64,000 nucleotides of DNA from Patescibacteria group bacterium (GTDB lineage: Bacteria; Patescibacteriota; Patescibacteriia; Magasanikbacterales; JBBTQS01), in the NCBI GenBank assembly GCA_038065555.1, contig JBBTQS010000001.1, positions 256,741-320,740 on the forward strand, read 5' to 3'. Below are positions 27,546 through 57,935 of this stretch, one piece after another; positions within the stretch are counted from its first letter, which is position 1; every line of letters begins with the position of its first letter. The position numbers were made by a program, and so were the translations under genes. Under the pieces are notes generated by a model. It made no database searches. It was not told where the DNA came from and saw only the letters and a list, made by a program, of their open reading frames with translations.

Positions 27546-27549
27546 CACT

Positions 27550-32966: not shown

Positions 32967-32976
32967 ACCGGCAAAA

Positions 32977-35196: not shown

Positions 35197-37073
35197 AGTA
35201 TCGGAAAACGTGTTCCAAGAGCCTCACCATCGCGCTTCACTTCTTCAGCTTTTTCTGGCTGATCAGCAACACGATACGCAAGATACAAATACAGATACGT
35301 CTCGCGAACACCTGGAGCATCAGCACGCACTGCCTCAAGACGTGTGATAGCATCCGCAACACGATTTGTACCAATCAAGAACTCACTCTCCGCATACGCG
35401 GGATACGGATGACGAGGTGCCAACGCCTGCGCTTGTGCAAATGTTCGCTGTGCCAAATCTATCCAATCATTCCCATTACTCTGCGCTTGTTGCGCATAGA
35501 ACTGTGCGAGGAGATATGTTCGATAGAACCGAGTTCCGTCCTGCGTACACCGCGGTGCAGCTCGCTCCAGATCACGCGCCGTGCGCACACGAATATCAGC
35601 AGCTATACGATCACTCCCCGCAACTGCCACCCACGTTTGCATCGCCTTCTCCCACAACACACACGATGCAGGCACAGCATCATCTGCACTGCGCGTGACC
35701 TCTTCCATCCACGGGAACCAGCGCCCTGCGGCACGCGCATCCTCCGCACGAGTGTACGACGCAAATGCGCTCATCTGCGCCACAACACCATACAAACTCC
35801 ACACAACCAACACTCCTGCAACGCCAATCACCGCACGGTGTCGAACATTCGCCACAGGCAATACCTTGCGTACTCGTGGCACCGCGATCACACTTCCCAC
35901 AATGATCCAAAAAAACGCTGCGACAATCGGTTGCTCCGGTGTGAACAAAAGATACATCCCATACGCACCCACCATTCCAAATAACGCTGGCGACACACGC
36001 CATGCAATCAACAACACCATAGCAAACAACGCAATCCACACAACAAGTCCAACAATACCCATCTCCACAGCAACCATCAATACTGCGTTATGCGCGTCAT
36101 CGTTGAACGCCTCACTTCCTGCATACACCAGACTCTCAGGATTGAACCGTGCAGCAAACACTTCAGGATACGCGCCCCGTCCCCACCCAAACCATGGTCG
36201 ATCCTGAATCCCCTCCCACGCACCACGCCACTGCAACAATCGCGTCTGCGATGTCACTGCCGACGGAGCAATCTGCAATGCTCGTGGCACACCCCAGGAG
36301 GCTGGAACAAATTGCAGCGCAACAAAGAGCAACACAATGGCACCAACACCACCCCCGATACGCAGTGCCCGAACGCGCTCCATATGCGCAACCATCCACA
36401 AACTCGCCATGACTATTCCTACAATCAATCCTAGCAATCCAGCACGACTATCCGTTGCAACAAGCGCACTCACTTGCACCAACGCTGCAGCAATCCACCA
36501 TCCACGAACAGCCGCATGGGCACGTACATACGCTATACCCGTTGCCCCCAATGCAACGAGCAAAAATCCAGCAAGAAATGAAGCATTTCCAAAACTTGAA
36601 ATTACACTTCCAGTCGATCCAATCCACACCCATCCAGGGAATACATTTCCCAACCAACCCAGTACTGCCACAACAACCCCCATTCCAGCAATCACACGCA
36701 CCAATCGATCGCGCCACACCTGCGTACACAATGATACCGCCAACAATGACCCACCAACTGCATGCACCCAAATCCACCATCCATTTGCACGTAACAGCGA
36801 TCCCCATCCGACCATTTCTCCACCCCGCGTCGCAATACCAAGTAACACCAGATACCCCAACACAATCCACCACAAATACTTGCTCATCCGCGCAGAACCG
36901 AGGTCAGCGTCAACATGAACACCTCGGCGCATCTGCGTAATTACAACCCAAAGAAATCCCAAATCCAAAAGCCCCATCATTGCCAACACCTTTGGTGTCA
37001 AATGCGCCTCAGGCAACGATGGCGCCACCAACAATGGCACACTTACCGCAAGTACAATAAGAAAAATACCCAT
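35193..37073 (-). CDS. O-antigen ligase (Wzy_C)-TPR fusion membrane protein (paralog 3)
   Basis: Same architecture; DRPWFGWGRGAY motif; 4-nt overlap with paralog 2. Confidence 0.65.
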   Translation of the reverse strand: MGIFLIVLAVSVPLLVAPSLPEAHLTPKVLAMMGLLDLGFLWVVITQMRRGVHVDADLGSARMSKYLWWIVLGYLVLLGIATRGGEMVGWGSLLRANGWWIWVHAVGGSLLAVSLCTQVWRDRLVRVIAGMGVVVAVLGWLGNVFPGWVWIGSTGSVISSFGNASFLAGFLLVALGATGIAYVRAHAAVRGWWIAAALVQVSALVATDSRAGLLGLIVGIVMASLWMVAHMERVRALRIGGGVGAIVLLFVALQFVPASWGVPRALQIAPSAVTSQTRLLQWRGAWEGIQDRPWFGWGRGAYPEVFAARFNPESLVYAGSEAFNDDAHNAVLMVAVEMGIVGLVVWIALFAMVLLIAWRVSPALFGMVGAYGMYLLFTPEQPIVAAFFWIIVGSVIAVPRVRKVLPVANVRHRAVIGVAGVLVVWSLYGVVAQMSAFASYTRAEDARAAGRWFPWMEEVTRSADDAVPASCVLWEKAMQTWVAVAGSDRIAADIRVRTARDLERAAPRCTQDGTRFYRTYLLAQFYAQQAQSNGNDWIDLAQRTFAQAQALAPRHPYPAYAESEFLIGTNRVADAITRLEAVRADAPGVRETYLYLYLAYRVADQPEKAEEVKRDGEALGTRFPIL

Positions 37074-37215: not shown

Positions 37216-40200
37216 TTAGTAGGTAAGCGTCTTGCCAGAGAATGGCAAGCCACCGAGACCGGAAGCTGTTGGCTTGAGGTCGTAGATAGCTGCGGTGTAA
37301 CCGTCAGTCCAAGTAATACCGCTCACAGCTGTCGAGCCACCGGAGGTACCTCCAACAGCGAGACCGATCGTGAGAGTATTGTTCGAAGCTGCGTCATCCG
37401 TGTCCATCGTGACGATAACCGTCTTGCTGGAACCAGATGGGACTTCCAAATCGGTGAAGGAAGCTTCAGCGATGTTGGTGTCATCCATCGAGCTGCCCAA
37501 GTCGCCAGACGAGAGCGTACTTACGTACGAAGTCGAAGCGAGGAGGTTACCCGAAGAGATGCTGTCCTTGTAGATCTTGATTTCACGAGCAGCGTGAGCA
37601 GCAGCTGCGGAGATCGAGGTGTCAACCTTGAGGTTGAGCAACTTGATCGTAGCGGACTGGTTGTTCACGTTTGCTGGGTTAGTGAAGACCCACTTAGCAA
37701 CTGTCTTGTCGTCACCCTTCGAAGTAGCGCCTGATGGTGCGTCCGAAGCGTGAGCGATGCTCAAGTTAGCCTTGAGAGGGTGCTTTGCCGTAGCAACAAT
37801 GCGCATGCTGTCGCCGGTCAAACCAGTGAAGGTTGTGATCGAAGCGCCAGATTCTGCACCGCGTGCAACGATAGAAGCGGAGTTGCTGCTGTCATAGCCG
37901 TACAAGAGACCTGCGAAGAACGTAGAGCTCGAGAAGCTATCTGGCGAACCAGTGATGTCAGCAACAAGGCGAAGCGTCTTGCTCGAGTTCTTTGGAACTA
38001 CGAGGTTAAGACCAGTGAACGTAGCGTACGCGGTCGAGGTTGCATATACAGCCGTCGAAGTCGCGCTTGCTGTTGCAAGGCTTGATACTGCGGAACCAAC
38101 CATTGTGTCACCGTCCATAAGGCGGAGGTTGCCAACAACACCAGTGGTGCTGGTAGCGAACAACGTCATGATGGATGGGGTGAGCTCGCTGATTGTCACG
38201 CCTTCTTCCTTACCTGCAGAGAACTTGAAGCGTCCAAGTTCAACGTCGGTGGAACCCATCGTTACGTAGTGCTCAGCTGTAGAGTCTGAAGCAAGAGCAA
38301 CGGTGAGAGAGCCAGACGATGCAACGTAAACGTTCTGGAGACCTGCGGACAAGGTAGCGGTACCACTCTGAGACGTCTCAAGTGTCTGGTAGGACACAGA
38401 AGATGGGTAGAGAATACCGTTCGTGTCTGCATTGATGTTTGCGCTAGAACCACCGGTCACGTCAGCAAGTACATCAACTACGTACGTCTCACCCTTTGCG
38501 AGCACGATAGGTGTCGTGAGGGTGTAGTCGTATGTGTCGGATGCGCCTGTTGTCAACGTGCCCTTAACGCCCGCGATGTCAGCACCATTGTGCTGGAGGC
38601 GGAGGTTGGAGAAGACTGCAGAGAGACCACCAGTTACATCAGCCTTTACGGTGATGTTGGTAATCTTTGCACCTTCGCCAGATCCTGCCTTTACCACGAA
38701 CGAGCTGATGCGTGCACTCTTGGTGCTCGATACAGCAGTTGGGTTCACAGAGCTACCATCAGCAACCGTCAAGTTCTCAGACAAAGTCGGAACTGACGAT
38801 GCGAAAGTAAGGCTGTAAGCCGTAGCAGCAGCAGTGCTGATCGACGTAAGAGAGGTCTTAGCCTGAGCGTTAGCAGAGCCAGCGCGGACTACAACCTGTA
38901 CTGTGTCGCCAGCCACAACCGAAGTATCGGTGGTGTCAGCAGTAACTACGAGCTTGCCAGTCGTACCTGGGGTCACAACAAAGTTGTTGGAGAACGTGTA
39001 GTCTGCGTCCAAGCTGGTGTTGTTACCAGAGGTCGAAGAAGCTACAGCTGTACCAACCTGTACACCGTTAAGGAAAAGCTTAACGTTCTTGTACGCGTTG
39101 TTGGAGGATCCTGCGAGGTAGAGAGACATGCTGTCAACCTTCACAGCTTCACCAGCTGCAACGAGGTCAAACGTTGCGAGGTTGACGCCAGTAGCGCCAG
39201 TCGCAATGTTGTTCTTCGTTGATTCGGTAGCTGGAGTGATTGTGAGCGTACCTGTGTTGATCGTCGTCTGTGCGGTGGTCTGAATGGAGAACGCCGTCGT
39301 ATTGAGGGTTACCACTGGAGCGTACACACCGTACTGAAGATCCCATGCAGTTACATCATTTTCTTCCTGAACCGAGAACTGGAAGTTACGGTTGGTACCG
39401 CCAACTACTGTTCCGTAGAGGTCCAAGAACTTCGACTGACCAGCAGTGATCTTGAGACCACCGTCTGCAGAGTTGGTGAAGTCGAACGTGAGCTTGTTGT
39501 TTCCAAGATCAGCGTACGTTGCACCAAACTGCGTGCCAGCAACAGTCAACTTGATGTTCTTGATGTCGGAAGCGCTTACCGAACCAATCTGTGTGAAGGT
39601 AATACGCTTCACAAGGAGGTTCTGATCTGTAGCAAGGATCTTGAACTTAGCAAGTTCCTTGTCTGCAGATGCGTTTGCATCCATGGTTGTAGCAGATACT
39701 GGGGACGATGTAGCAACCTGGAGATAGCCGAGGTCAGTGACCGTAGCAATCGTCATGTTGTTTCCAACAGCCGAACCAGATGCTGCACCGGACTTCACTT
39801 CAGCAGCGTTCACGGTAAAACCAACGGTTGTACCAGTGCTTGCTGACTTGTTGATGTTTGCCTTCACCCAAATGGTCTTGGTCTGGCCAGCTGGAACGGT
39901 GAAAATACCGTTCGAGTTGCTCCAGGTTACCTTGCCGCTCGAGATAGAAGAGGACTCTGCAAGAATAGTCTCGCCGTCCATGAGCATTACTTCATCAACA
40001 TCGCTGTCCTTCGAGATACCTGTGCGAGTTGCAGTAACCATAGTTACTACAGCCTCTGCACCCACTGCGGAGAAGCGTACAGCCGTCATTGGGGCCATGC
40101 GCTGTCCGAGCGTAGCGCTAGCTGTTGTGTCAACCACAACGGAACCAGCTGCTGGTGTAGCGGAGTCGAGCGAAATTGTCAACGTCGTTGGAGCTGTTGG

Positions 40201-40914
40201 CGAGACTGGCGTACCGCCTGTCTGTGCCGTGTCTGCAACGTCGCTAGCGCCAAGAGCTGAACCAGCGGTCAAGCCAGCGAGAGATCCAGTTACAACGAAC
40301 TTCGTGTTGAAGTGGTTGCTTGTGAATGCTGCATCGCTCACCATGCGCTTCATGTTGCCCTCAACGTAGTACTTAGAAGCTCCGTCCATCACAACTGCAC
40401 CTGTTGGGTACACGCCTGCTGTAGCAAGCTCTGCACCAGTGGTGTAGTTCGTGAAGAATGCGTCTGAGACGTCGATTACCGACTTGCCCCAGTTAGCACC
40501 CCAAAGAGACTTAGCAACTTCTTCGGTCTTTACCCAGCGCAATACGCCCTTAGGCTCTACTGCGTATACCTTTGGATCCGTCGTGATTTTCACGAGGAAG
40601 GTACCAGGGCGCACTACAATGTTTCCTGCAAGTGGTACTGCTGCCAATTCGTCAGCCGATACCACGGTTACGCCGTTGAAGTTTGGATACCAAGCTTCAA
40701 AGGTCTTTTGTGACGGGAAGGTGTAGCGGCCGTTATTCATGTAGTAGTACACCGTCGAGAGATCCGCACGCTTGATCAACATTCCGTTGGTCAAGGTTGC
40801 TGCTGAAGCGGTCAATGGGGCTACCATTGCTGCAAATCCAACAGCCCAGAGGATCGTCGCGGTCGCTACTACATACGTAGCGGACTGCTTCACCATTCTC
40901 ACTGCATCTGTCAT
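37216..40914 (-). CDS. giant cell-surface protein B (S-layer-like, tandem Ig-like/beta-sandwich repeats) with N-terminal about 115-aa shared domain
   Basis: Signal peptide ...ILWAVGFAAMVAPLTASAA; N-terminal RPGTFLVKITTDPKVYAV...DVSDAFFTNYT domain homologous to the C-terminus of protein A; about 1000 aa of S/T/A/G/V-rich repeats. Confidence 0.7.
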   Translation of the reverse strand: MTDAVRMVKQSATYVVATATILWAVGFAAMVAPLTASAATLTNGMLIKRADLSTVYYYMNNGRYTFPSQKTFEAWYPNFNGVTVVSADELAAVPLAGNIVVRPGTFLVKITTDPKVYAVEPKGVLRWVKTEEVAKSLWGANWGKSVIDVSDAFFTNYTTGAELATAGVYPTGAVVMDGASKYYVEGNMKRMVSDAAFTSNHFNTKFVVTGSLAGLTAGSALGASDVADTAQTGGTPVSPTAPTTLTISLDSATPAAGSVVVDTTASATLGQRMAPMTAVRFSAVGAEAVVTMVTATRTGISKDSDVDEVMLMDGETILAESSSISSGKVTWSNSNGIFTVPAGQTKTIWVKANINKSASTGTTVGFTVNAAEVKSGAASGSAVGNNMTIATVTDLGYLQVATSSPVSATTMDANASADKELAKFKILATDQNLLVKRITFTQIGSVSASDIKNIKLTVAGTQFGATYADLGNNKLTFDFTNSADGGLKITAGQSKFLDLYGTVVGGTNRNFQFSVQEENDVTAWDLQYGVYAPVVTLNTTAFSIQTTAQTTINTGTLTITPATESTKNNIATGATGVNLATFDLVAAGEAVKVDSMSLYLAGSSNNAYKNVKLFLNGVQVGTAVASSTSGNNTSLDADYTFSNNFVVTPGTTGKLVVTADTTDTSVVAGDTVQVVVRAGSANAQAKTSLTSISTAAATAYSLTFASSVPTLSENLTVADGSSVNPTAVSSTKSARISSFVVKAGSGEGAKITNITVKADVTGGLSAVFSNLRLQHNGADIAGVKGTLTTGASDTYDYTLTTPIVLAKGETYVVDVLADVTGGSSANINADTNGILYPSSVSYQTLETSQSGTATLSAGLQNVYVASSGSLTVALASDSTAEHYVTMGSTDVELGRFKFSAGKEEGVTISELTPSIMTLFATSTTGVVGNLRLMDGDTMVGSAVSSLATASATSTAVYATSTAYATFTGLNLVVPKNSSKTLRLVADITGSPDSFSSSTFFAGLLYGYDSSNSASIVARGAESGASITTFTGLTGDSMRIVATAKHPLKANLSIAHASDAPSGATSKGDDKTVAKWVFTNPANVNNQSATIKLLNLKVDTSISAAAAHAAREIKIYKDSISSGNLLASTSYVSTLSSGDLGSSMDDTNIAEASFTDLEVPSGSSKTVIVTMDTDDAASNNTLTIGLAVGGTSGGSTAVSGITWTDGYTAAIYDLKPTASGLGGLPFSGKTLTY

Positions 40915-47972: not shown

Positions 47973-48071
47973 CGTACGACGTTCGACGAATGATTGCGTG
48001 ACGGAACGAGAGATGCGCAGCGCGTGCATATGCGTGCAGTATATCACAAACTAAACACCTCGAACCCAAAA

Positions 48072-48112
48072 ACAAAAAAGAGACCTCAGTTGCTGAGAAT
48101 CTCTGCCGCTCC
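48072..48112 (-). terminator. intrinsic terminator
   Basis: On the minus strand, an AGAGAUUCUCAGCAACUGAGGUCUCU hairpin followed by UUUUUUGUUUUUGG, 30 nt after the stop of the small Gly/Asp-rich protein gene. Confidence 0.45.
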
Positions 48113-48139
48113 ATCAACTACGCTCGTGTGCGTAGGATG

Positions 48140-48373
48140 TTAGTCGCCACCGCCTCCGTCGCCGCCAGAATCACCGCTGCCCCAGTCACCGTCTCCGCTG
48201 TCACCGCCACCAGATCCGCCGAACAGATTTCCGACGAAATCCAGGAAGCCGGAGAAGCCACCACGATCGTAGCGCGAAGGCGTGCGTACGAGGTAGGCCA
48301 GCACGATGATCACGAACAGAACCACGATAGCGATGACTACGATGCAGCCCTGAGTACCCAAGAACTCACACAT
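48140..48373 (-). CDS. small single-pass membrane protein with Gly/Asp-rich C-terminal tail (about 77 aa)
   Basis: MCEFLGTQGCIVVIAIVVLFVIIVLAYLV TM helix, then GGFSGFLDFVGNLFGGSGGGDSGDGDWGSGDSGGDGGGGD; AAGGAGG RBS 7 nt before the ATG; consensus TATAAT -10 upstream. Confidence 0.5.
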   Translation of the reverse strand: MCEFLGTQGCIVVIAIVVLFVIIVLAYLVRTPSRYDRGGFSGFLDFVGNLFGGSGGGDSGDGDWGSGDSGGDGGGGD

Positions 48374-48388
48374 GCAGTTTCCTCCTTG

Positions 48389-48420
48389 GATTATACCTGC
48401 TATTGCGAGCGTACCACACA
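48389..48420 (-). promoter_or_regulatory. promoter with consensus TATAAT -10 for the small membrane protein
   Basis: Minus-strand GGTATAAT located about 12 nt upstream of the AAGGAGG RBS; weak -35 (TTGTGT/TGTGGT). Confidence 0.4.
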
Positions 48421-48585
48421 ATATCGCGAGGTTCAAGATGTCTATAAATCGAAAAGCCGGAGAGCGTCATGGAGATGTTGAATCTGCATGCGCTCGCCGG
48501 CTTTCGGTCGGTTGCCTCATTGCTGAGGCAAGTTGTTCGCGCTATCGAGTGCGCGAGTATTCAATGATCGTCTTCCGAACCTCGA

Positions 48586-50268
48586 TTAGTTCGGTGGGGT
48601 GTAGGTGCACAGGTAGTTGAGCCCCTGCGAACCATTGGTCACTTCGACACAGTCGACCGAGCCCGTACCCGTGTTGGCCATGAGAACGTCCACGGATTGG
48701 ATACCGGGATTCTCCCACGGCGTCGGGAAGTAGAACTTCTGGAACGACGAGGCGGCGACCTTGTACTCGATGAAAAGGATGAAGTAGGTGATGTCGTTCC
48801 CGAAGACCGGGATCTCGAACTCCTTCCATCCTTCGATCAACAGCGGCGTCGTGCTGTTGATCCCCCAGTCCGTGTAGGTGCGATCTCCGCTACCGTACGG
48901 ATCCTCGAGGTCCTCGTAGTTCTCGCAGCTGAACTCGTTGATCGCCCACCCAGCCGCCTTCTTGGCCGGGTCGGTCTCGAGCTGCCCACTTGCGCAGGTA
49001 TAGCCGTTGACCTCGAGCGAGTAGATGTTCGCTGATGACTTCTTCGTGACCTGAACCGCGATTTCGACGAGGCTGAGCGGATTGGCCGGCGGCTCGGGAT
49101 CAGTTGCACACTGACCACCGATACTGCAGGCGCAAACCGGCACGTTGCTGCACTGACCGCTCACACAGGAGTCGGCCGTGCATGCCTTGTCGTCGTTGCA
49201 GTTCTTGGCGACTCCGACGCACGCGCCTCCGACGATGATCTCGTCGTTGACCGTACAGCTATCGAAATCGTTGCAGGCGTCGCCGACTTGCGGTCCGACC
49301 ACCACGCACTGCCCCGTTGACGCGGAACACTCTTTGCCGTCGGCGCACTGGACCGGCTCGTTGACACAGGTGCCGCTGACGCAACCGTCTTGCGTGCACT
49401 TGCTGTTATCGAGACACTCCTTCTGCACGCCGTGGCACTCGCCGTTCTGCTTGATCCGATCCGTGACCGTGCAGGGGTCATTGTCGTTACACGACTCGCC
49501 CGGCTGCGGCTCGACGACCGGCTCCTTGCAGACGCCAGACTCGCAGACGTCACCGTCCACGCACTTGGGCGAGGTCGCGCAACCGCTGTCACCCTCGCAG
49601 GTGTCGTTGGTACACGCATTGCCGTCGTCGCACACCTTTGCCACCGCGACGCACTTCTTGCCGTCGCAGGTGTTGTCAGTGCAGAGATCGCCGTCGTCGC
49701 ACAAGGCATTCTTCGCCGTGTGCGAACAGTTGCCGTCGACAATCGCGTCGACGGTGCACGGAACCTCGTCGTCGCAGTCCGGGACCACCACCACTTCGAC
49801 GCATTTGTCGGCGTCGTCGTCGCAGTAGTTACCGTCACCGCAGTCGCGCTCGAAGTGGAGGCAGTCGCCCGTCTCCGCTTCGCACTCGTCCGTGGTGCAG
49901 AACTTGCCGTCGGCGCACGTGCGGACTTCTCCGCCGTTGCACTCGAATTCACCGTCGGCATTCGCATGCCAGCAGGTGCCCTCGGTGCACGGCTTGCCGT
50001 CATCGCACGGGTCGCCTTCCTTCGGGCCGGACGAATCCGGCTCGACGGTGACGTCCTTGGGCGGGACGTAGGTGTCGGCGCTGTCGGTCGCGTCCGAACC
50101 ATCCGTCGTGTCGGGCGGGACGTACGTATCCGGCTGCCCGGCGTCGTACGGCTCCTGCCACGTGTCGGACGGCGGCGGGTTGTTGTACCCCACGTCGTAA
50201 CCATACGGAACAGCAGCCTGACACGCACCCATGAACATCGCCGCCAGTACCACCACCAACTTCTTCAT
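48586..50268 (-). CDS. secreted lipoprotein with tandem cysteine-rich CxDGxxCTxDxC repeats and a C-terminal beta-rich domain
   Basis: MKKLVVVLAAMFMGAC lipobox; Pro/Asp-rich linker; about 8 repeats such as CDDGKPCTEGTC, CDDGDLCTDNTC, CDDGNACTNDTC; the gene is markedly GC-richer than flanking DNA. Confidence 0.6.
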   Translation of the reverse strand: MKKLVVVLAAMFMGACQAAVPYGYDVGYNNPPPSDTWQEPYDAGQPDTYVPPDTTDGSDATDSADTYVPPKDVTVEPDSSGPKEGDPCDDGKPCTEGTCWHANADGEFECNGGEVRTCADGKFCTTDECEAETGDCLHFERDCGDGNYCDDDADKCVEVVVVPDCDDEVPCTVDAIVDGNCSHTAKNALCDDGDLCTDNTCDGKKCVAVAKVCDDGNACTNDTCEGDSGCATSPKCVDGDVCESGVCKEPVVEPQPGESCNDNDPCTVTDRIKQNGECHGVQKECLDNSKCTQDGCVSGTCVNEPVQCADGKECSASTGQCVVVGPQVGDACNDFDSCTVNDEIIVGGACVGVAKNCNDDKACTADSCVSGQCSNVPVCACSIGGQCATDPEPPANPLSLVEIAVQVTKKSSANIYSLEVNGYTCASGQLETDPAKKAAGWAINEFSCENYEDLEDPYGSGDRTYTDWGINSTTPLLIEGWKEFEIPVFGNDITYFILFIEYKVAASSFQKFYFPTPWENPGIQSVDVLMANTGTGSVDCVEVTNGSQGLNYLCTYTPPN

Positions 50269-50321
50269 ATCTCTTCTCCCGGGCCACTTGGACCCTTGCT
50301 CAAGAAATCGCTTTCGAGGGC

Positions 50322-50333
50322 TGACACATGTCA
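50322..50333. promoter_or_regulatory. perfect 12-bp palindrome TGACACATGTCA in the 5' UTR of the Cys-rich lipoprotein gene
   Basis: Inverted repeat TGACA-CA-TGTCA about 55 nt upstream of the start codon; candidate operator. Confidence 0.3.
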
Positions 50334-50486
50334 CCCCTCACCATCGCATTCAGTTTTCAAACGTCGATTTGGTAAGTCGCACATTGCTGTGACGTCTTCC
50401 AATCGTTCGGCTCAAGGCAACACACGAAGGAGGGTACGTGCGTTACCGAACCGAACGATTGCAAAACACCAGTAAATGAACAAGAA

Positions 50487-50515
50487 AGAATACCATATTT
50501 AGCTTAATTTGTCAA
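50487..50515 (-). promoter_or_regulatory. sigma70-type promoter CCTTGACAAAT-17-TATTCT
   Basis: Minus-strand TTGACA/TATTCT with 17-nt spacer, about 210 nt upstream of the lipoprotein start (long 5' UTR containing a 62-nt hairpin at about 50400-50461). Confidence 0.45.
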
Positions 50516-50526
50516 GGGGTAAAAGT

Positions 50527-50572
50527 GGCTAAAATAGCAAGAACCCGCAAAATCGTTTGACTTTGCGGGTTC
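50527..50572 (-). terminator. intrinsic terminator GAACCCGCAAA-N10-TTTGCGGGTTC
   Basis: Perfect 11-bp stem followed on the minus strand by UUGCUAUUUU; lies between the OmpA-like gene end and the next promoter. Confidence 0.5.
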
Positions 50573-50658
50573 AGGTTTTCCCTTTCAGGATCAATTGTGG
50601 GCATTCACTCGCACGTGAAAGGGGTCGTGCGGGGTGGTTTAATGTCGCCCTAGTGGAT

Positions 50659-52092
50659 CTAGAAGCGGACGCCGAGCAAAGCCTGGCCGTCGACGGCTGC
50701 CTCGGCAGAGGTCACGCCGGGCACATCGTTGCCACCGCTGACCTCGAAGCCGATGAAGCCATTGACCGGCGCGCGCTGGTCCTCGAGGAAGTACGCCTTG
50801 TACCCGAATCCGGCTCCGAAGAACACGAAGTCCGAGTACCCCGGCTTGTGCGTCGAGTACCAGGTGAACCGACCGTTGATGGAGAACATGTGCCGACCAA
50901 CCCGACCGAAGACGCCGTAGCGAACTCCGCCGTTCCAGCCTGCATCTGCCTCCTTGTCAGCTTCGGGGAAGCTGTTGGTCGATCCAACTGCCAGGGAGCC
51001 ACCGATGTAGGCGCCCCAGTTCTCGTGCCACTGGAACAGCATGTCCAAGGACAGCTGCCCCATGACGAGTGTCTCGTTGACGTCGAGATCGAGGTCGCCC
51101 ATCACGCGATGGACCGACACTCCAGCCGCAAGTTCGATCGCCGCGTAGGAGAACGAACGAGTGCTGGTTGAACCGACGGTGCCGTTCTTGATGATGCCAT
51201 CGACGTCCTTGCGAAGGCCGTCGATTTCGCGCCATTGGCTGACGTTGTCGTCCTCGAGATCGCCGACGCGCTTGTTGAGCGTCTGGAACTGGGATTCGAA
51301 GTAGCCGACGACGGATTCCGTGTTGGGACCGAGATCCCACACGACAACCGCACGCAGACCCTTGCGTTGATTCCCAACTCCAGGCAGCGCACGCGCCGTC
51401 TGGAAGCCGCCATTGGCCAGCAACTGATTGAATCGCGAGACCCGGAGGTCTGCGAGCATCCGGTTGCAGCTGCTGTGCGTCTTGCCCTGCGTCTGGCACC
51501 GGATCTCATCCGCGAACCCGACCAGACCGATGTCGTGGCCGGACTTCGCGACGCTCAACGCCTTGTCCACGCACTGCTGCGTCGACGCGTTGGCCTCGTA
51601 CTTCCCGACTTCGTACATCGCCACGCAGACGATGTGGTTGTCGAGTCGCCCGAGGACGCTGTGCGCCGCTCGCTGTGCTTGGACGATATGCGGGCGAGCG
51701 CGAACCGTCATCGCGGGACCGGCCTCGGCTGCACGTGTTGCCACGCTCAGCTTCGACTTGAGGTCTGCGACGACGTTGAGCAACTCGGCGTTGTTCGTCT
51801 TGAACGCCGCGAGCTGCTCATTGACCGCTGCGAGGAGCGCCTTGATGCGCTCGTTCTCTTCGCGGGCGGCGGCGAGGTCGGCGAAACCGTTCCCGTTGGC
51901 CTGTGCGGCCTCGAGAACACGGCAACGCTCATTCGCGGCCTCGAGCAGGGCCTTGACCCGCTCGAGCTCGTTCAAGTCCGACTCCAAGGTGGGGTCGAGC
52001 ATGACGATGGTGTCGTCGGCGACAGCGGCGAACGGGATGAACAGAGCCGCGACGATCGCGGCGAGAACGAGGTTGCAGAGGAACTTCTTCAT
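50659..52092 (-). CDS. OmpA-like peptidoglycan-binding domain protein with N-terminal coiled-coil and C-terminal beta-barrel-like region ending in Phe
   Basis: Signal peptide; coiled-coil (LNELERVKALLEAANERC...); OmpA_C-like core (IGLVGFADE...NRMLADLRVSRFNQLLANGG...LRAVVVW); alternating-hydrophobic C-terminal half ending ...ALLGVRF. Confidence 0.55.
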   Translation of the reverse strand: MKKFLCNLVLAAIVAALFIPFAAVADDTIVMLDPTLESDLNELERVKALLEAANERCRVLEAAQANGNGFADLAAAREENERIKALLAAVNEQLAAFKTNNAELLNVVADLKSKLSVATRAAEAGPAMTVRARPHIVQAQRAAHSVLGRLDNHIVCVAMYEVGKYEANASTQQCVDKALSVAKSGHDIGLVGFADEIRCQTQGKTHSSCNRMLADLRVSRFNQLLANGGFQTARALPGVGNQRKGLRAVVVWDLGPNTESVVGYFESQFQTLNKRVGDLEDDNVSQWREIDGLRKDVDGIIKNGTVGSTSTRSFSYAAIELAAGVSVHRVMGDLDLDVNETLVMGQLSLDMLFQWHENWGAYIGGSLAVGSTNSFPEADKEADAGWNGGVRYGVFGRVGRHMFSINGRFTWYSTHKPGYSDFVFFGAGFGYKAYFLEDQRAPVNGFIGFEVSGGNDVPGVTSAEAAVDGQALLGVRF

Positions 52093-52279
52093 GACTAACT
52101 CCGGCCCCCTTTTCGAATAAAGGTAGGAGGCAAACCGTTTGAGACACTAACGTAAATTGTCGATGTGCGGGTTTCCCCCGCGTCGCCCTTTCGGGTGGGT
52201 ACTGGGGAAAACCATGTGTACCGCGATATTCCCACAGAATACTCTGGAAATATCGCGAAACACTTGAATTGAACGTCGA

Positions 52280-52308
52280 ATCGTATCACAATCTACAGAT
52301 TTTGTCAA
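52280..52308 (-). promoter_or_regulatory. sigma70-type promoter CTTGACAAAA-17-TACGAT
   Basis: Minus-strand -35/-10 with 17-nt spacer, about 185 nt upstream of the OmpA-like gene start; the leader contains the CGCGATATTCC...GGAAATATCGCG hairpin (52223-52257). Confidence 0.45.
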
Positions 52309-52421
52309 GTAGTCATTCTAGCTGAAATAACTCGAGGCTCGCGATTTCTTCCCGTAGGGTTGAAATCGCGAGCCTCGTCGTTGACGCCATCGTCGCTGTT
52401 GGCGGCGATGACATCAGAGCG

Positions 52422-53180
52422 TTAGCGGCATTCGAGCTGACACTTGGTGTCTGCCCCACAGCGCGCAATGCACTCTTGAGCCCATCCAGACGCGGGCGAA
52501 CCCTCGTCAGACGGCACGCTGGCGACCGCGGGCTTGCTGGGCTTGGTGACCCGAGCAACGCCGCGGCGCGCACCCTTGGGGATGGACTTGCCCGGGCTCG
52601 CCGCGCGCTCCACAGCCGGTGAGGCGGTGGAAACGGCGAGCGTCGTGCTCAGGCGGCGCAGGACCTCCTTCACGTAGGACAGCTTGGTATCGTCATTGCT
52701 GACGAGCTTGCGCTGCTCTTCGCGAAGGGCCTTCTCGAGACGTCGGATCTCGAGATGCGCCACATCGACGTCCTTGGGATCGAGCTGGGCCGAGTTGCCA
52801 GCGTCGTCCTCGAGCGCGATGGCCACCCGGTAGACCTGGTCGACATCCCAGTCGTCGTTGACGGCGTTCTTGAGGTCGTACCCAGGAAAGGCGTCAGTCG
52901 GCGGGGTCGCGGCGGGGTTGGCCGGGATCTCGGTCGCCTTGCGGACGACCTCGACCAGGCGCGGATCGCGAGCGAGCTGGAGCAGGGCCTCGCGGGCCTG
53001 CTCGAGCAACTCCTCCTTGGCCTCCTCCTTGGGGAGCTGGCGACGGAGCTTGGCGCACTCCGCGGCCGTGGTGCACGTCGGATTGACCGTCGGCGGCGCG
53101 CAGTACGCGACGCCGGTGTAGAAACACGCGATCGCTGCGATCGCGAGGACGGCCATCTTGGAAACGAACTTGTTTCGCAT
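52422..53180 (-). CDS. hypothetical secreted coiled-coil protein with terminal Cys pairs
   Basis: Signal peptide MRNKFVSKMAVLAIAAIACF; N-terminal CTTAAEC and C-terminal CIARCGADTKCQLEC Cys clusters; Ala/Glu/Arg-rich helices; GC-rich. Confidence 0.45.
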   Translation of the reverse strand: MRNKFVSKMAVLAIAAIACFYTGVAYCAPPTVNPTCTTAAECAKLRRQLPKEEAKEELLEQAREALLQLARDPRLVEVVRKATEIPANPAATPPTDAFPGYDLKNAVNDDWDVDQVYRVAIALEDDAGNSAQLDPKDVDVAHLEIRRLEKALREEQRKLVSNDDTKLSYVKEVLRRLSTTLAVSTASPAVERAASPGKSIPKGARRGVARVTKPSKPAVASVPSDEGSPASGWAQECIARCGADTKCQLECR

Positions 53181-53355
53181 TTGCTCTCTCTCCCGCCCAC
53201 ATCAACTGATGGGGCAACGTGGTGAAGTCCGTCGTGATACGGCGGACAGGGACAATTGTAGGTACTACTCGGTTGATGCCGTTGCTACGAATGTAGCTTC
53301 GGCGAAGAACGATTCGTTAAGCGAGGGGTGAAAAACACCGATCGCAGAACCGAGT

Positions 53356-53384
53356 AAACTAACACGTTTGCGCAGTTTTGTCAA
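53356..53384 (-). promoter_or_regulatory. sigma70-type promoter CTTGACAAAA-17-TAGTTT
   Basis: Minus-strand -35/-10 with 17-nt spacer, about 175 nt upstream of the 52422-53180 gene. Confidence 0.45.
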
Positions 53385-53396
53385 GACTTGCGCGAT

Positions 53397-53957
53397 TTAG
53401 ACGTGTTTTTTCTTCTGAAATAGGACAAAAATTGATGCGAGGATGGCGCCGAAGAGGAAGCCGATCAGACCATTCATGGGGAGATTTGGGCGAACTGGAA
53501 ATCGTGAGGCAATGGGCTCGTCTGCGATCTTGAATGTGGCCTGAGCACCTACATACTCAATACCGTACTCCATGATTGTTTTGCTCACACCCTGTGCGAG
53601 AATCACTGCTTGTGCGGGATCTGTGCTATACGCTGTCATGCGCAGGAGGCCAGTACCAGGAGTCACATCTGATTCAATATTCTTGAGCCAGTATTTGCGA
53701 CGCAGACGCTCCTCAGTTGGGAAGGCAGTTTGATCAATGCGTGGCTCCACCTCGAGCACGCGGCCGAGGAACTCACTCGTCCCGATGGCAAGCGCGAGGT
53801 TCTCACCTACTCGCTCCGAGGATTTGATCACTGTGTATGGATCCACACCAAATCCCTGACGCGGAATCACGAACACTCCAGCAGTAGCAGAATATTTGAG
53901 CGGGAAGAAAAGACTCACAATGATTGCGATGAAGAGTCCGATGAACCCCACACTCAT
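53397..53957 (-). CDS. Wzz/chain-length-determinant-like (polysaccharide co-polymerase) small bitopic membrane protein
   Basis: N- and C-terminal TM helices flanking an approximately 130-aa extracytoplasmic domain; C-terminal GLIGFLFGAILASIFVLF typical of PCP proteins. Confidence 0.45.
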   Translation of the reverse strand: MSVGFIGLFIAIIVSLFFPLKYSATAGVFVIPRQGFGVDPYTVIKSSERVGENLALAIGTSEFLGRVLEVEPRIDQTAFPTEERLRRKYWLKNIESDVTPGTGLLRMTAYSTDPAQAVILAQGVSKTIMEYGIEYVGAQATFKIADEPIASRFPVRPNLPMNGLIGFLFGAILASIFVLFQKKKHV

Positions 53958-57010: not shown

Positions 57011-57069
57011 ATATATAGAGCTAGACTAACGTCAGTGTAGCGTATATAGTGATCTTGCACAATTGCTGT

Positions 57070-57516
57070 ATGCCTACGCTTGCAACCAACAGAACCGCAC
57101 GATTCAACTACGAAATCCTCGAAACCATCGAGGCAGGTATTGTGTTGTCCGGTGACGAGGTCAAATCCGTGCGCGCAGGAGGCATGCGACTGACCGAGAG
57201 CTTTGTCACATTCCGTGGCGAACGCGCAGTACTCACTAACGCGCACATTAGTCGCTACGCAAAGAGTAACCCACTTGTTGGGTACGATCCGGAGCACACA
57301 CGCGAACTCCTTCTGCACAAGGCACAGATCATGCATCTGCTTGGCAAAAAGACGCGAGATGGATTGACTATTGTGCCTCTTTCTGCCTATACTTCCAGAG
57401 GTCGCATCAAAATTGAAATCGGTCTTGCACGTGGCAAGAAGACCATTGACAAACGAGAAAGTATCAAACGTCGTGAATCAGATCGCGAGATTGCTCGTGC
57501 GATGAAATCGCGCTAG
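57070..57516 (+). CDS. smpB: SsrA-binding protein
   Basis: NRTARFNYEILETIEAGIVLSGDEVKSVRAG...GLTIVPLSAYTSRGRIKIEIGLARGKK is canonical SmpB; followed directly by tmRNA. Confidence 0.9.
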   Translation: MPTLATNRTARFNYEILETIEAGIVLSGDEVKSVRAGGMRLTESFVTFRGERAVLTNAHISRYAKSNPLVGYDPEHTRELLLHKAQIMHLLGKKTRDGLTIVPLSAYTSRGRIKIEIGLARGKKTIDKRESIKRRESDREIARAMKSR

Positions 57517-57541
57517 CGACTGCGACACTCACATCATCACT

Positions 57542-57935
57542 GGGGATGCCCGGCTTCGATGGGAGGTTCATGGACGTGTCGTAGCATACCGAGCGGACGG
57601 ACGCTCGTTAATCCCCGTCAAACAGTCTACGTGCAAACGTTTACTCGCGCGTGAAGAATTCGATCGCTTCGGCGTTCGCAATGCCTTCATTCGCTCCGGT
57701 CGCAGCCTAATAACTCCGACCCATCACCCTCAGGACACCTCTACTGAGATCGTGGTGCAATACCGAGGTGTAGCATAGGAACGTCGCACCGCGTCCTTCG
57801 CGAAATCAACTGGTGCGCCGTGAGTCAGGGCTTCGCACGCATGCTGCCTGTCTCCCGTATTTCATGCGTGCTTCGTATGGACACTCGATACGCACATCCT
57901 TCCAGACGCGGGTTCGACTCCCGCCATCTCCACCA
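57542..57935 (+). ncRNA. ssrA: tmRNA (ssrA)
   Basis: 5' GGGGATGCCCGGCTTCGATGGG and 3' GACGCGGGTTCGACTCCCGCCATCTCCACCA tRNA-like ends; internal tag reading frame ending ...GCAATGCCTTCATTCGCTCCGGTCGCAGCC TAA TAA (…AMPSFAPVAA**). Confidence 0.85.

What the first reader, a model, noticed from the sequence alone, without database searches (positions are those of the whole stretch)
48437..53396. GC-rich about 5-kb island encoding three secreted/outer-membrane-type proteins, each with its own promoter and long structured 5' UTR
Codon usage here is visibly GC3-rich (runs such as GTCGTCGTCGCAGTCCGGGACCACC). Both strands carry long spurious overlapping ORFs, a hallmark of high-GC DNA and unlike the flanking roughly 52% GC sequence. 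The three genes (Cys-rich repeat lipoprotein, OmpA-like barrel protein, coiled-coil secreted protein) all have signal peptides. Each is preceded by the same CTTGACAAAA-N13-TAnnnT promoter used elsewhere in the window, with unusually long leaders of about 175-210 nt. This points to a horizontally acquired but regulatorily assimilated envelope module, or to a locally distinct composition driven by the Cys/Asp/Gly-rich proteins.
Basis: seen in the sequence. Interest (0 to 1): 0.7.

Follow-up and report, generated by a model that had tools for sequence, protein, structure and literature searches.

The report
GC3-rich envelope gene module in Patescibacteria
Three neighbouring genes for secreted cell-envelope proteins in a tiny groundwater bacterium (Patescibacteria) use a strongly G/C-ending codon dialect that every related lineage has kept at the same locus, so it is a long-maintained property of these genes and not recently imported DNA.

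Summary
Three minus-strand genes (g3 52422-53180, g2 50659-52092, g1 48586-50268) have GC3 of 0.82-0.84. All other ~70 genes of this genome that I could read have GC3 of 0.37-0.69. The excess sits in the coding sequences only: the promoter and leader regions between the genes are about 50% GC, like other intergenic DNA.

It is not a recent import, a misassembly or an amino-acid effect. The same module occupies the same slot (PDZ protease, Wzz-like gene, [module], Wzy_C, GT4) in nine lineages whose background GC3 ranges from 0.20 to 0.61. In each lineage it is raised by a similar logit shift (1.2-2.2).

Each gene has a near-consensus extended -10 promoter, a structured leader of about 170-210 nt and its own terminator-like hairpin. 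The g1 leader carries a covariation-supported hairpin, absent from Rfam, whose loop is CCCUCCUU (anti-Shine-Dalgarno-like). The proteins evolve fast (dN/dS 0.18-0.64, against 0.02-0.06 in the flanks), yet synonymous divergence is about 2.5 times lower.

g2 models as a permuted OmpA-like protein: coiled coil, peptidoglycan-binding domain, coiled coil, then an 8-stranded outer-membrane-type barrel ending in Phe. That is unexpected in a phylum treated as monoderm.

Best explanation: a persistent, gene-specific GC-favouring pressure, probably selection tied to strong expression. GC-biased gene conversion is the main rival.

The parts
53356..53384 (-). g3 promoter: TTGACA-N14-TGtTAGTTT (exact -35 plus extended -10)
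   Evidence: Exact match to the pattern. The same motif stands upstream of the g3-type gene in L018, L011 and L016.
53181..53349 (-). g3 5' leader, about 169 nt, structured
   Evidence: MFE -58.9 kcal/mol, z = -3.4 against shuffles. It is 96% identical in L001. It is 88% identical in L004, whose protein is only about 35% identical.
52422..53180 (-). g3: 252-aa secreted protein. Signal peptide, N-terminal Cys pair, Ala/Pro-rich helical middle part, C-terminal CxxxCxxxxxCxxxC motif. Function unknown.
   Evidence: GC3 0.84. dN/dS 0.64 against L001. Only 5 relatives found, all in this clade. A mosaic allele exists in L004. No Pfam or NCBIfam family. The coiled-coil character was not modelled.
52333..52377 (-). 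Terminator-like hairpin after g3
   Evidence: Inverted repeat of 21 nt, 90% complementary, 3-nt loop, followed by a T-rich stretch.
52280..52308 (-). g2 promoter: TTGACA-N14-TGaTACGAT
52093..52273 (-). g2 5' leader, about 181 nt, structured. A CCUCC stretch is predicted to pair with the GGGGG/GGAG ribosome-binding region.
   Evidence: z = -4.2. 11 of 33 consensus pairs carry compensatory changes across 4 sequences.
50659..52092 (-). g2: 477-aa permuted OmpA-like protein. Signal peptide, coiled coil (34-147), OmpA_C/Pal/MotB-like peptidoglycan-binding domain (about 153-256), helix (258-302), 8-stranded barrel (315-476) ending ...GVRF.
50541..50572 (-). Terminator-like hairpin after g2 (14-bp stem plus T run)
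50487..50515 (-). g1 promoter: TTGACA-N14-TGgTATTCT
   Evidence: Nearly invariant in L001, L002 and L010.
50269..50480 (-). g1 5' leader, about 212 nt, highly structured
   Evidence: MFE -94.7 kcal/mol, z = -6.8. The whole g1 upstream intergenic region is 96% identical in L001. The core is conserved across all lineages.
50399..50462 (-). Conserved leader hairpin: 24 bp, 10-nt loop U(A/G/C)CCCUCCUU (anti-Shine-Dalgarno-like). New RNA motif.
   Evidence: In 8 distinct sequences 94.4% of cells are paired and 8 pairs change on both sides. 0 of 500 shuffles reach the observed values for cells paired, cells changed on both sides, pair types and covariation score (8 of 500 for the count of pairs changed on both sides). 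Pairing collapses when partners are slid. The covariance model finds one strong forward-strand copy per locus, 69-86 bits. No Rfam match.
48586..50268 (-). g1: 560-aa lipoprotein. Lipobox-like FMGAC, Pro/Asp/Thr-rich linker, about 12 Cys-rich repeats (Dicty_CTDC-like), C-terminal non-repeat domain of about 170 aa.
   Evidence: PF00526 scores 19.1 bits, below its cut-off of 27. 238 repeat-level homologues were found; almost all of the 120 listed carry PF00526, in Myxococcota, 'Deltaproteobacteria' and CPR records. Internal repeat families D1-D3. GC3 0.82. An Lgt gene is present in the genome.
48446..48506 (-). Terminator-like hairpin after g1 (AAAGCCGG...CCGGCTTTTCGATTT)
   Evidence: Read from the sequence. 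Not listed by the scan.
48140..48373 (-). Small 77-aa membrane protein with a Gly/Asp-rich tail. It partly shares the codon dialect (C3 0.49, A3 0.09, GC3 0.67). Seen only in the window and L001.
   Evidence: dS 0.13 against L001.

Best explanation
The region is an old, vertically inherited and rapidly evolving cell-envelope module of one clade of Patescibacteria (CPR). It sits inside a surface-glycan gene cluster (Wzz-like, Wzy_C, GT4).

It consists of independent transcription units. Each has a near-consensus sigma-70 promoter with an extended -10 element, a conserved structured 5' leader of about 170-210 nt (150-320 nt in relatives), a purine-rich ribosome-binding site and its own terminator-like hairpin.

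The products are:
- a secreted protein with Cys motifs at both ends (g3);
- a permuted OmpA-like protein with a peptidoglycan-binding domain and a C-terminal 8-stranded barrel (g2);
- a lipoprotein with Cys-rich repeats (g1).

The GC-richness is a property of the coding sequences, mainly of their synonymous sites. It is kept up in every lineage by a persistent GC-favouring pressure of roughly constant population-scaled strength (logit shift about 1.5). This pressure works against each genome's own mutational bias.

I infer that the pressure is selection at synonymous sites linked to very strong or robust expression of these envelope proteins. G/C-ending codons, or a GC-rich and stable mRNA body, would act together with leaders that stabilise the mRNA and gate translation.

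Shown: the anatomy, the conservation across lineages, the compositional pattern, the substitution rates, the RNA structure and the protein folds.
Inferred: that the force is selection, that expression is high, and that the leaders act as stabilisers and as elements that sequester the ribosome-binding site.
For: 1. GC3 is 0.82-0.84 in the island and 0.37-0.69 in about 70 other genes of the genome.
2. The excess is confined to coding sequences and has abrupt edges. Leaders are 0.48-0.52 GC.
3. The module occupies the same slot in the window, L001, L018 (with L002, L009, L013 carrying the same g1 leader), L010/L011, L012, L014, L015, L016 and Azambacteria L020. Flank GC3 runs from 0.20 to 0.61 and island GC3 from 0.54 to 0.89. 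The logit shift is 1.2-2.2 in all nine.
4. Against L001, island dS is 0.20-0.26 while flank dS is 0.38-0.83. dN/dS is 0.18-0.64 in the island and 0.02-0.06 in the flanks. Synonymous sites are therefore constrained even though the proteins evolve fast.
5. At the L018 distance, flank proteins are 83-85% identical and island proteins 31-54%. The composition is nevertheless retained. By a rough decay estimate of my own, neutral amelioration is untenable at that distance.
6. Every island gene in every lineage where the upstream region is held has TTGACA-N14-TGnTAnnnT and a leader of 150-320 nt. The one exception is an extra 448-aa gene in L010/L011, with a leader of about 50 nt. The window holds only 5 exact copies of this promoter and 3 of them are here.
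7. The leaders are structured and more conserved than the proteins they precede.
8. C over U in Phe, Tyr, Ile and Asn codons is also mildly favoured in GreA, SmpB, L27 and a pilin (S = 0.78). The island is an extreme in the same direction (S = 2.0-3.5).
9. No phage or plasmid match, and no border repeats.
Against: - The offset of 0.23-0.46 in GC3 is far larger than any expression-linked codon bias I know of (my knowledge). CPR are presumed to grow slowly, so translational selection should be weak.
- The only ribosomal protein gene within reach (L27, GC3 0.59) and a type IV pilin gene (0.53) are not GC3-rich.
- The shift is a uniform G/C push. No A- or T-ending codon rises. That looks more like a compositional force than adaptation to particular tRNAs.
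- No expression data were available.
- The lower island dS could instead reflect more recent gene flow at this locus.
Confidence: 0.5

Rival explanations
1. GC-biased gene conversion at a recombination hot spot. The module encodes surface proteins under diversifying selection. Alleles are often exchanged by homologous recombination anchored in the conserved leaders and flanks, and biased repair of heteroduplex DNA drives synonymous sites towards G/C. The leaders escape only because purifying selection holds their sequence.
For: - A mosaic g3 allele exists in L004: the leader is 88% identical to the window, the last ~45 codons plus terminator are 82% identical, and the central coding part is unrelated.
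- dN/dS is high and the proteins are hypervariable.
- Gene content differs between lineages, from 3 to 5 genes, with g2 domains reshuffled.
- The G/C push is uniform over all codon classes and independent of residue conservation.
- A constant logit shift is what a constant conversion bias predicts.
- An association between recombination and GC3 in bacteria is published (PMC4450053).
Against: - The edges are abrupt at start and stop codons. There is no leak into the last 40 codons of the adjacent Wzz-like gene or the first 40 of Wzy_C, although conversion tracts should not respect gene ends.
- The leaders are not GC-enriched.
- The effect is much larger than I recall for bacterial gene conversion (my knowledge).
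- Island divergence rises with flank divergence, as expected for mainly vertical descent.
Confidence: 0.25
2. Foreign DNA. The three genes were acquired from a GC-rich donor (for example Myxococcota or another diderm, possibly the host of this episymbiont) and still carry the donor's codon usage. Only the promoters were assimilated.
For: - The codon usage resembles that of high-GC bacteria.
- The g1 repeats have many homologues in Myxococcota and 'Deltaproteobacteria' records.
- The products are diderm-type envelope proteins (an outer-membrane-type barrel, a lipoprotein) in a phylum regarded as monoderm.
- An ancient transfer as the ultimate origin cannot be excluded.
Against: - The module is present in the same slot in all nine lineages examined.
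- GC3 tracks the recipient's background instead of holding a donor value: 0.54 in the AT-rich L016 and 0.89 in L018.
- No donor-like homologue of g2 or g3 was found in 5.8 billion proteins or 1.8 billion cluster representatives.
- The DNA between the genes has the host's composition and the host's promoter type.
- There are no border repeats, and no integrase or tRNA adjoins the locus.
- Flank synonymous sites have diverged heavily since the lineages split, so an unselected donor signature should have decayed (the decay estimate is my own rough calculation).
Confidence: 0.05
3. Amino-acid composition or an assembly artefact. The GC-richness is a by-product of Cys/Asp/Gly/Ala-rich proteins, or the contig is chimeric.
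For: g3 has the highest GC1 in the window (0.68), and the proteins are rich in Ala, Gly and Asp.
Against: - The signal is at third positions: GC3 is raised by about 0.31 while GC1+2 is raised by only about 0.02 in the window. It appears within each amino acid's set of synonymous codons.
- The same junctions are recovered in at least 4 independent assemblies and in 8 other lineages.
Confidence: 0.01

Closest known systems
OmpA family (8-stranded outer-membrane barrel plus OmpA_C peptidoglycan-binding domain, PF00691)
   Different: The domain order is reversed: peptidoglycan-binding domain first, barrel last. Two long coiled-coil segments are inserted. No Pfam, NCBIfam or PDB match at the sequence level. 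The organism belongs to a phylum treated as monoderm.
OmpM/SlpA-type outer-membrane tethers of diderm Terrabacteria (SLH domain, coiled-coil stalk, C-terminal barrel)
   Same: The order is the same: N-terminal wall-binding module, coiled-coil spacer, C-terminal barrel (architecture as described in PMC10628300).
   Different: The wall-binding module is OmpA_C-like, not SLH. The barrel has 8 strands and is not a large porin. CPR are reported to have lost porins and SLH domains (10.1101/2021.05.31.446380).
Codon bias of highly expressed genes and long stabilising 5' UTRs (E. coli ompA leader, S-layer gene leaders; from my own knowledge)
   Same: Strong consensus promoters, long structured leaders, monocistronic units, biased synonymous codon use and reduced dS.
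   Different: The magnitude is much greater (Sharp-type S 2.0-3.5; GC3 raised by 0.23-0.46). The push towards G/C is uniform and not specific to tRNAs. It is restricted to one locus. It was not seen in the one ribosomal protein gene available. Expression was not measured.
Genomic islands acquired by horizontal transfer
   Same: A local, strong deviation in GC and codon usage.
   Different: No mobility genes, border repeats or tRNA target. Present in every relative examined. The composition tracks the host's background. The DNA between the genes has the host's composition.
Cys-rich repeat proteins (Pfam Dicty_CTDC PF00526; Myxococcus-type cysteine-rich repeats)
   Same: g1 carries about 12 CxxDGxxCTxDxC-type repeats. 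It retrieves 238 homologues, almost all of the 120 listed carrying PF00526.
   Different: The window protein itself scores below the Pfam cut-off (19.1 against 27 bits). It has a lipoprotein signal and a unique C-terminal domain. The closest relative outside the clade is about 30-40% identical, over the repeats only.
C-rich-loop regulatory RNAs and 5' UTR elements that sequester the Shine-Dalgarno sequence (for example RNA thermometers; from my own knowledge)
   Same: The g1 leader presents CCCUCCUU in a hairpin loop, complementary to GGAGG-type ribosome-binding sites. All three leaders are predicted to pair their ribosome-binding regions.
   Different: No Rfam family matches. The pairing partner of the loop was not established. 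The function was not tested.

Membership tests
Horizontally acquired genomic island | Composition and codon usage deviate from the host genome | tested here: met
   GC3 0.82-0.84 against 0.37-0.69 elsewhere.
Horizontally acquired genomic island | Patchy distribution among related genomes (present or absent) | tested here: not met
   Present in the same slot in all nine lineages examined.
Horizontally acquired genomic island | Mobility signatures: integrase, flanking direct repeats, tRNA target | tested here: not met
   No border repeats. Neighbouring genes are Wzz-like, PDZ, Wzy_C and GT4. The nearest tRNA is more than 40 kb away.
Horizontally acquired genomic island | Identifiable donor lineage with closer homologues than the recipient's relatives have | tested here: not met
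   g2 has 1 hit by word-indexed search and 5 by full HMMER. g3 has 5 hits. All those whose context could be read lie in the same syntenic slot of relatives.
OmpA family (PF00691 OmpA_C-like domain) | Alpha/beta peptidoglycan-binding fold | tested here: met
OmpA family (PF00691 OmpA_C-like domain) | Significant match to the family's sequence profile | tested here: not met
   No Pfam or NCBIfam hit at E <= 0.01. No PDB sequence hit.
OmpA family (PF00691 OmpA_C-like domain) | Conserved Asp and Arg that bind the peptide stem of peptidoglycan | tested here: inconclusive
   D195 and R217 are invariant in the 6-sequence alignment, within ...GxADE... and ...LAxxR... contexts. Their equivalence to the ligand-binding residues was not checked residue by residue.
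OmpA family (PF00691 OmpA_C-like domain) | Canonical order: N-terminal barrel, C-terminal peptidoglycan-binding domain | tested here: not met
   The order is reversed, with coiled coils inserted.
Outer-membrane 8-stranded beta-barrels (OmpX, OmpA-TM, NspA, Ail) | Eight antiparallel strands forming a closed barrel | tested here: met
   AF2 gives 8 strands of 13-16 residues with pLDDT about 70-90. Foldseek: NspA TM 0.66, OmpX 0.58, OmpA-TM 0.56-0.61.
Outer-membrane 8-stranded beta-barrels (OmpX, OmpA-TM, NspA, Ail) | Alternating hydrophobic (lipid-facing) and polar faces | tested here: met
   Mean Kyte-Doolittle hydropathy +1.74 on one face and -0.82 on the other. Charged or polar residues: 3 of 55 against 18 of 56.
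Outer-membrane 8-stranded beta-barrels (OmpX, OmpA-TM, NspA, Ail) | C-terminal aromatic residue (the signal read by BAM) | tested here: met
   g2 ends ...GVRF. P0001 and P0007-P0010 end in F or Y, as do the g2-type genes of L014 and L016.
Outer-membrane 8-stranded beta-barrels (OmpX, OmpA-TM, NspA, Ail) | The organism has an outer membrane and BamA/Omp85 insertion machinery | not testable with these tools
   Only about 84 kb of a genome of about 0.9 Mb could be read, and no BamA, Lpt or Lol genes were seen in it. CPR are described as monoderm (PMC8871954; 10.1101/2021.05.31.446380).
OmpM-type tether | N-terminal SLH domain | tested here: not met
   No SLH hit in Pfam. The wall-binding module is OmpA_C-like.
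OmpM-type tether | Coiled-coil stalk between the wall-binding module and a C-terminal barrel | tested here: met
   A helix at residues 258-302 lies between the domain (153-256) and the barrel (315-476). This segment has low confidence (pLDDT 29-56).
Translationally selected codon bias of highly expressed genes | Same preferred codons, at lower intensity, in ribosomal protein and other highly expressed genes | tested here: inconclusive
   L27 has GC3 0.59 and a pilin 0.53. Pooled GreA, SmpB, L27 and pilin have GC3 0.53, with a mild preference for C over U (S 0.78, against 2.8 for the island). Only one ribosomal protein gene was within reach.
Translationally selected codon bias of highly expressed genes | Reduced synonymous divergence | tested here: met
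   dS 0.20-0.26 against 0.38-0.83 in the flanks.
Translationally selected codon bias of highly expressed genes | Stronger bias at conserved residues (Akashi test) | tested here: not met
Translationally selected codon bias of highly expressed genes | High measured expression | not testable with these tools
   No transcriptome or proteome data. Only promoter quality is available as a proxy.
Dicty_CTDC / Cys-rich repeat proteins (PF00526) | Repeat matches the family profile above its cut-off | tested here: inconclusive
   The window protein scores 19.1 bits against a cut-off of 27. Almost all of its 120 listed homologues carry precomputed PF00526.
Bacterial lipoprotein | Signal peptide with a lipobox Cys, and Lgt present in the genome | tested here: met
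   MKKLVVVLAAMFMGAC in the window...TVGC...WAGC and ...AGGC in orthologues. An Lgt gene (PF01790) lies 10 kb beyond the window's low-coordinate end. Lipidation itself was not tested.
Any Rfam RNA family (for the leaders) | Match to a curated covariance model | tested here: not met
   No hit at gathering score in the window. One chance-level hit at E <= 1 in 48000-53500, on the terminator hairpin.

The most novel reading that the evidence does not exclude
A clade of Patescibacteria, a phylum treated as monoderm, maintains a dedicated diderm-style envelope module. It comprises a peptidoglycan-anchored, coiled-coil-spaced outer-membrane-type beta-barrel with a BAM-like C-terminal signal, together with a lipoprotein. 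Either these cells have an unrecognised outer layer that holds barrels, or the barrel is inserted into the outer membrane of a host cell as an attachment device.

The genes of this module are written in a privileged GC-ending codon dialect. A gene-specific selective force has held that dialect for the whole history of the clade, against backgrounds as AT-rich as GC3 0.2. The genes are also controlled by a new class of conserved leader RNAs, one of which has an anti-Shine-Dalgarno loop.
Probability: 0.15. Interest if true: 0.85.

Novelty: new variant of a known kind. Interest (0 to 1): 0.62.

Why it matters
1. Reading compositional islands. Here a very strong GC3 anomaly is an inherited and actively maintained property of a gene set. 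Because the logit offset is nearly constant across genomes whose GC3 spans 0.2-0.6, it offers a natural experiment for measuring a GC-favouring force (selection or biased gene conversion) in bacteria, a question that remains open.

2. CPR cell envelope. The locus points to the likely major envelope or surface proteins of an uncultivated CPR clade. One of them is an OmpA-like protein with an outer-membrane-type barrel, which bears on whether all CPR are monoderm and on how episymbionts attach to hosts.

3. A new RNA motif. The analysis yields a leader RNA motif supported by covariation and absent from Rfam.

4. Annotation. Gene callers mis-annotate these GC3-rich genes and call antisense ORFs instead. 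The module is therefore probably under-reported in CPR genomes.

Tried and rejected
- Misassembly or chimera: rejected, because the same junctions appear in independent assemblies.
- Amino-acid-driven GC: rejected, because the signal is synonymous.
- Phage or plasmid origin: no DNA match to phages for the whole island, and no protein match to plasmids for g2.
- Integron-like or cassette repeats, att sites: none found. The only repeats are the internal Cys-repeat families of g1 and the hairpins.
- Shared leader element across the three genes: the alignment shows only the promoter and a short GTTC...GTGTTT stretch in common. The covariance model of the g1 hairpin finds no copy in the g2 or g3 leaders.
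- Known RNA families: none.
- Avoidance of an RNase or toxin motif (for example ACA) as the reason for A-depletion: a k-mer test against synonymous shuffles found only generic avoidance of TA, TAA and TTAA and of CCC and GGG.
- Real antisense genes: the long antisense ORFs are the expected by-product of high GC3. None stood out in the ORF list of the AT-richer L016. Not pursued.
- Translational-accuracy (Akashi) signal: absent.
- Polarising AT-to-GC against GC-to-AT substitutions with an outgroup: not attempted, because the outgroup (L018) is too divergent at synonymous sites.
- AFDB fold search to look for the same architecture elsewhere: the library was unavailable.
- Sequence-profile search of PDB for g2: only coiled-coil noise.
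- Literature searches for GC3 or codon usage in Patescibacteria, and for CPR envelope structure, returned nothing specific.

Full report
**1. The observation**

GC in 1-kb windows rises to 0.56-0.63 between 48 and 53 kb, against about 0.44-0.57 elsewhere. Three minus-strand ORFs fill the region:
- g3, 52422-53180, 252 aa;
- g2, 50659-52092, 477 aa;
- g1, 48586-50268, 560 aa from the ATG that follows a GGGAGAAGAG ribosome-binding site.

Their GC3 is 0.84, 0.82 and 0.82. The 49 other ORFs of the window range from 0.37 to 0.69. Twenty more genes in the 10 kb beyond each end of the window range from 0.44 to 0.65.

The change is abrupt and follows gene boundaries. GC3 is 0.55 in the last 40 codons of the upstream Wzz-like gene and 0.88 in the first 40 codons of g3. 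It is 0.78 at the end of g1 and 0.50 at the start of Wzy_C. The stretches between the genes are 0.48-0.52 GC, the same as other intergenic DNA. The 'island' is therefore three GC3-rich coding sequences embedded in DNA of ordinary composition.

Third-position composition is A .05, C .50, G .33, T .11 in the island and .21.25.28.27 elsewhere. Every codon class shifts (NNY to C, NNR to G, four-fold boxes mainly A to C), and no A- or T-ending codon rises. GC1 and GC2 are near normal, so amino-acid composition is not the cause.

**2. Transcription-unit anatomy**

The motif TTGACA-N14-TGnTAnnnT gives 8 matches with at most one mismatch in 64 kb, against 1.2 expected (0 of 100 shuffles reach 8). Three of the five exact matches precede g3, g2 and g1.

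Leaders are about 169, 181 and 212 nt long. They fold more stably than shuffled sequence, with z = -3.4, -4.2 and -6.8. Terminator-like hairpins follow g3 and g2, and one can be read after g1.

A 77-aa Gly-rich membrane-protein gene (48140-48373) downstream partly shares the C-ending codon preference.

**3. Where it comes from**

g1 is 100% identical to a protein that NCBI names 'hypothetical protein AAB384_01555 [Patescibacteria group bacterium]'. It is recorded on contigs of up to 881 kb. The window also matches contigs from the Hainich groundwater site.

The window's other genes fit a CPR genome: several Wzy_C/TPR membrane proteins, GT4 glycosyltransferases, tmRNA and SmpB, a VirD4-like ATPase. 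PilM and a pilin gene lie just beyond the window.

**4. The module is old and clade-wide**

I recovered relatives in three ways:
- through the rare protein homologues;
- by scanning genome and metagenome collections for the conserved leader hairpin;
- through other CPR Cys-repeat proteins.

This gave the same slot (PDZ protease, Wzz-like, [module], Wzy_C, GT4, GT4) in nine lineages.

Flank GC3 and island GC3 in each lineage:

| Lineage | Flank GC3 | Island GC3 |
|---|---|---|
| window | 0.52 | 0.83 |
| L001 | 0.53 | 0.84 |
| L018 | 0.52 | 0.89 |
| L011 | 0.61 | 0.84 |
| L012 | 0.37 | 0.83 |
| L014 | 0.41 | 0.86 |
| L015 | 0.34 | 0.65 |
| L016 | 0.20 | 0.54 |
| Azambacteria L020 | 0.49 | 0.81 |

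The logit(GC3) shift is 1.2-2.2 everywhere. Island GC1+2 stays at 0.52-0.59 while flank GC1+2 ranges from 0.40 to 0.53.

A donor signature would give one fixed GC3, or a decaying one. What is seen instead is a constant offset on each genome's own background. That is the pattern expected from a directional force of constant population-scaled strength.

There are no border repeats, no phage or plasmid matches, and no homologues of g2 or g3 outside the clade.

**5. Rates of evolution**

L001 is 89.5% identical to the window over 17 kb. Against L001:
- flanking genes have dS 0.38-0.83 and dN/dS 0.02-0.06;
- island genes have dS 0.20-0.26 and dN/dS 0.18-0.64;
- the island's intergenic regions are 93-96% identical.

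At the L018 distance, flank proteins are 83-85% identical and island proteins 31-54%. At greater distances the figures are 43-59% and 21-41%. The core of the g1 leader nevertheless stays nearly invariant. The order of conservation is therefore leader RNA, then flanking proteins, then island proteins.

A 1.1-kb contig from the same aquifer (L004) carries a mosaic g3 allele. Its leader is 88% identical to the window's and its last ~45 codons plus terminator are 82% identical, but the central coding part is unrelated. This shows allelic replacement at the locus.

**6. Leader RNAs**

The g1 leader contains a 24-bp hairpin (window 50399-50462) with the loop U(A/G/C)CCCUCCUU. Across eight distinct sequences:
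- 94.4% of cells are paired;
- eight pairs change on both sides;
- 0 of 500 shuffles reach the observed values for cells paired, cells changed on both sides, pair types and covariation score (8 of 500 do for the count of pairs changed on both sides);
- pairing collapses when the partners are slid by 1-3 columns.

A covariance model finds one strong forward-strand copy per locus, at 69-86 bits. The g2 leader has 11 of 33 pairs with compensatory changes. No Rfam family matches.

The loop is complementary to GGAGG-type ribosome-binding sites, and minimum-energy folds pair the ribosome-binding regions of all three leaders. A role in gating translation or stabilising the mRNA is my inference. It was not tested.

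**7. The proteins**

*g2.* AlphaFold on a six-sequence alignment gives a signal peptide, a coiled coil (34-147), an alpha/beta domain (153-256), a helix (258-302) and eight beta-strands (315-476).
- The barrel matches NspA, OmpX, the OmpA transmembrane domain and Ail (Foldseek E 1e-5 to 1e-3, TM up to 0.66).
- Its strands alternate a hydrophobic and a polar face.
- g2 and its aligned homologues P0001 and P0007-P0010 end in Phe or Tyr, as do the g2-type genes of L014 and L016.
- Sequence profiles do not detect it.

g2 is thus a permuted OmpA-like protein. Its order of wall anchor, stalk and barrel recalls OmpM-type tethers.

CPR are described as monoderm and as having lost porins. Whether this genome has BamA could not be tested.

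*g1.* A lipoprotein with about 12 Dicty_CTDC-like Cys repeats.

*g3.* A secreted protein with Cys motifs at both ends and no known family.

**8. What keeps GC3 high**

*Recent transfer, amino-acid composition and misassembly* are rejected (sections 1 and 4).

*Selection tied to strong expression* fits the following:
- the consensus promoters and long leaders, in every lineage;
- the gene-delimited edges;
- the reduced dS;
- the constant logit offset;
- the same, weaker preference for C over U in GreA, SmpB, L27 and a pilin (S 0.78, against 2.0-3.5 for the island).

Against it:
- the magnitude is very large;
- L27 (GC3 0.59) and the pilin (0.53) are not GC3-rich;
- the push is uniform and not specific to tRNAs;
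- there is no Akashi-type signal;
- there are no expression data.

*GC-biased gene conversion* at a recombining, diversifying locus (PMC4450053) fits the uniform push, the mosaic allele and the hypervariability. It does not fit the abrupt edges or the GC-normal leaders.

I put selection at about 0.5 and gene conversion at about 0.25. The remainder goes to mixed or unknown forces.

**9. Verdict**

The finding is real. Its 'horizontal island' interpretation is largely wrong.

What is there is a conserved, fast-evolving envelope module of a CPR clade with three features that are each unusual:
- a long-maintained, gene-specific GC3 excess of constant logit size across very different genomic backgrounds;
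- leader RNAs more conserved than the proteins they control, including a new motif with an anti-Shine-Dalgarno loop;
- an OmpA-like protein with an outer-membrane-type barrel in a phylum regarded as monoderm.

Noticed in passing
window 5953-12436 (tRNA-Gln at 5835-5908): A second compositional anomaly in the opposite direction. Four minus-strand genes (AcrB-type RND pump 5953-9057, a membrane-fusion protein 9070-10878, and two ORFs with no family) have GC 0.40-0.46 and GC3 0.37-0.41, against about 0.52 elsewhere. They lie directly next to tRNA-Gln(CTG). This may be a genuine acquired island.
   Followed up: no
L001 7589-8575(-) and 8825-9388(-); L007/L008 about 20004-20475(-): Public gene calls in related assemblies place ORFs on the antisense strand of g1 and g3 and miss the real genes. 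This is the usual artefact of high GC3, so the module is probably under-annotated in CPR genomes.
   Followed up: partly
L012-L016 (CAYZOG010000035.1, CAZVGV010000002.1, OZ246400.1, CAZKMQ010000007.1, CAZVIA010000005.1): These records are titled 'uncultured Gammaproteobacteria bacterium'. They carry the same CPR-type synteny and leader hairpin, and OZ246400.1 is a 931-kb chromosome. The taxonomic labels look wrong.
   Followed up: no
L020 5523-15920 (Candidatus Azambacteria, GCA_016234725.1): Four Dicty_CTDC lipoprotein genes with GC3 0.70-0.85 lie next to Wzy_C and GT4 genes at 0.46-0.53, with a 135-aa gene of GC3 0.29 in between. In an Uhrbacteria contig (L019) the two Dicty_CTDC genes are only mildly raised (0.51-0.55 against 0.29-0.55). 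The phenomenon extends beyond the window's clade but not to all CPR.
   Followed up: partly
window 48586-53180 (island coding sequences): TTAA is absent from the island coding sequences: 0 occurrences in the window's 3.9 kb, and 0 observed against 18 expected from synonymous shuffles over seven lineages. It occurs 0.8-0.9 times per kb elsewhere in the window. This may be general TA avoidance or site avoidance.
   Followed up: partly
window 30861-37073: Three consecutive large Wzy_C-domain membrane proteins (718, 739 and 626 aa; the middle one has TPR repeats) lie in a stretch of very strong strand skew (GC skew down to -0.42, AT skew up to +0.39 per kb).
   Followed up: no
window 37216-40914 and 24317-27598: Two very large ORFs (1232 and 1093 aa) have no Pfam or NCBIfam family and ordinary GC3 (0.56 and 0.42).
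   Followed up: no
window 57446-57935: A TTGACAAA sequence lies about 90 nt upstream of the tmRNA gene (57542-57935; tag peptide ANVYSRVKNSIASAFAMPSFAPVAA). The tmRNA is 99% identical to L001 while neighbouring genes are about 88-90% identical. SmpB is adjacent at 57049-57516.
   Followed up: no
L004 1-1134 (Hainich H41, ENA ERZ1292624): A mosaic allele of g3 from the same aquifer keeps the leader, the last ~45 codons and the terminator, but has an unrelated acidic, Pro/Thr-rich central region. Several g3 allele types therefore coexist in the local population.
   Followed up: partly
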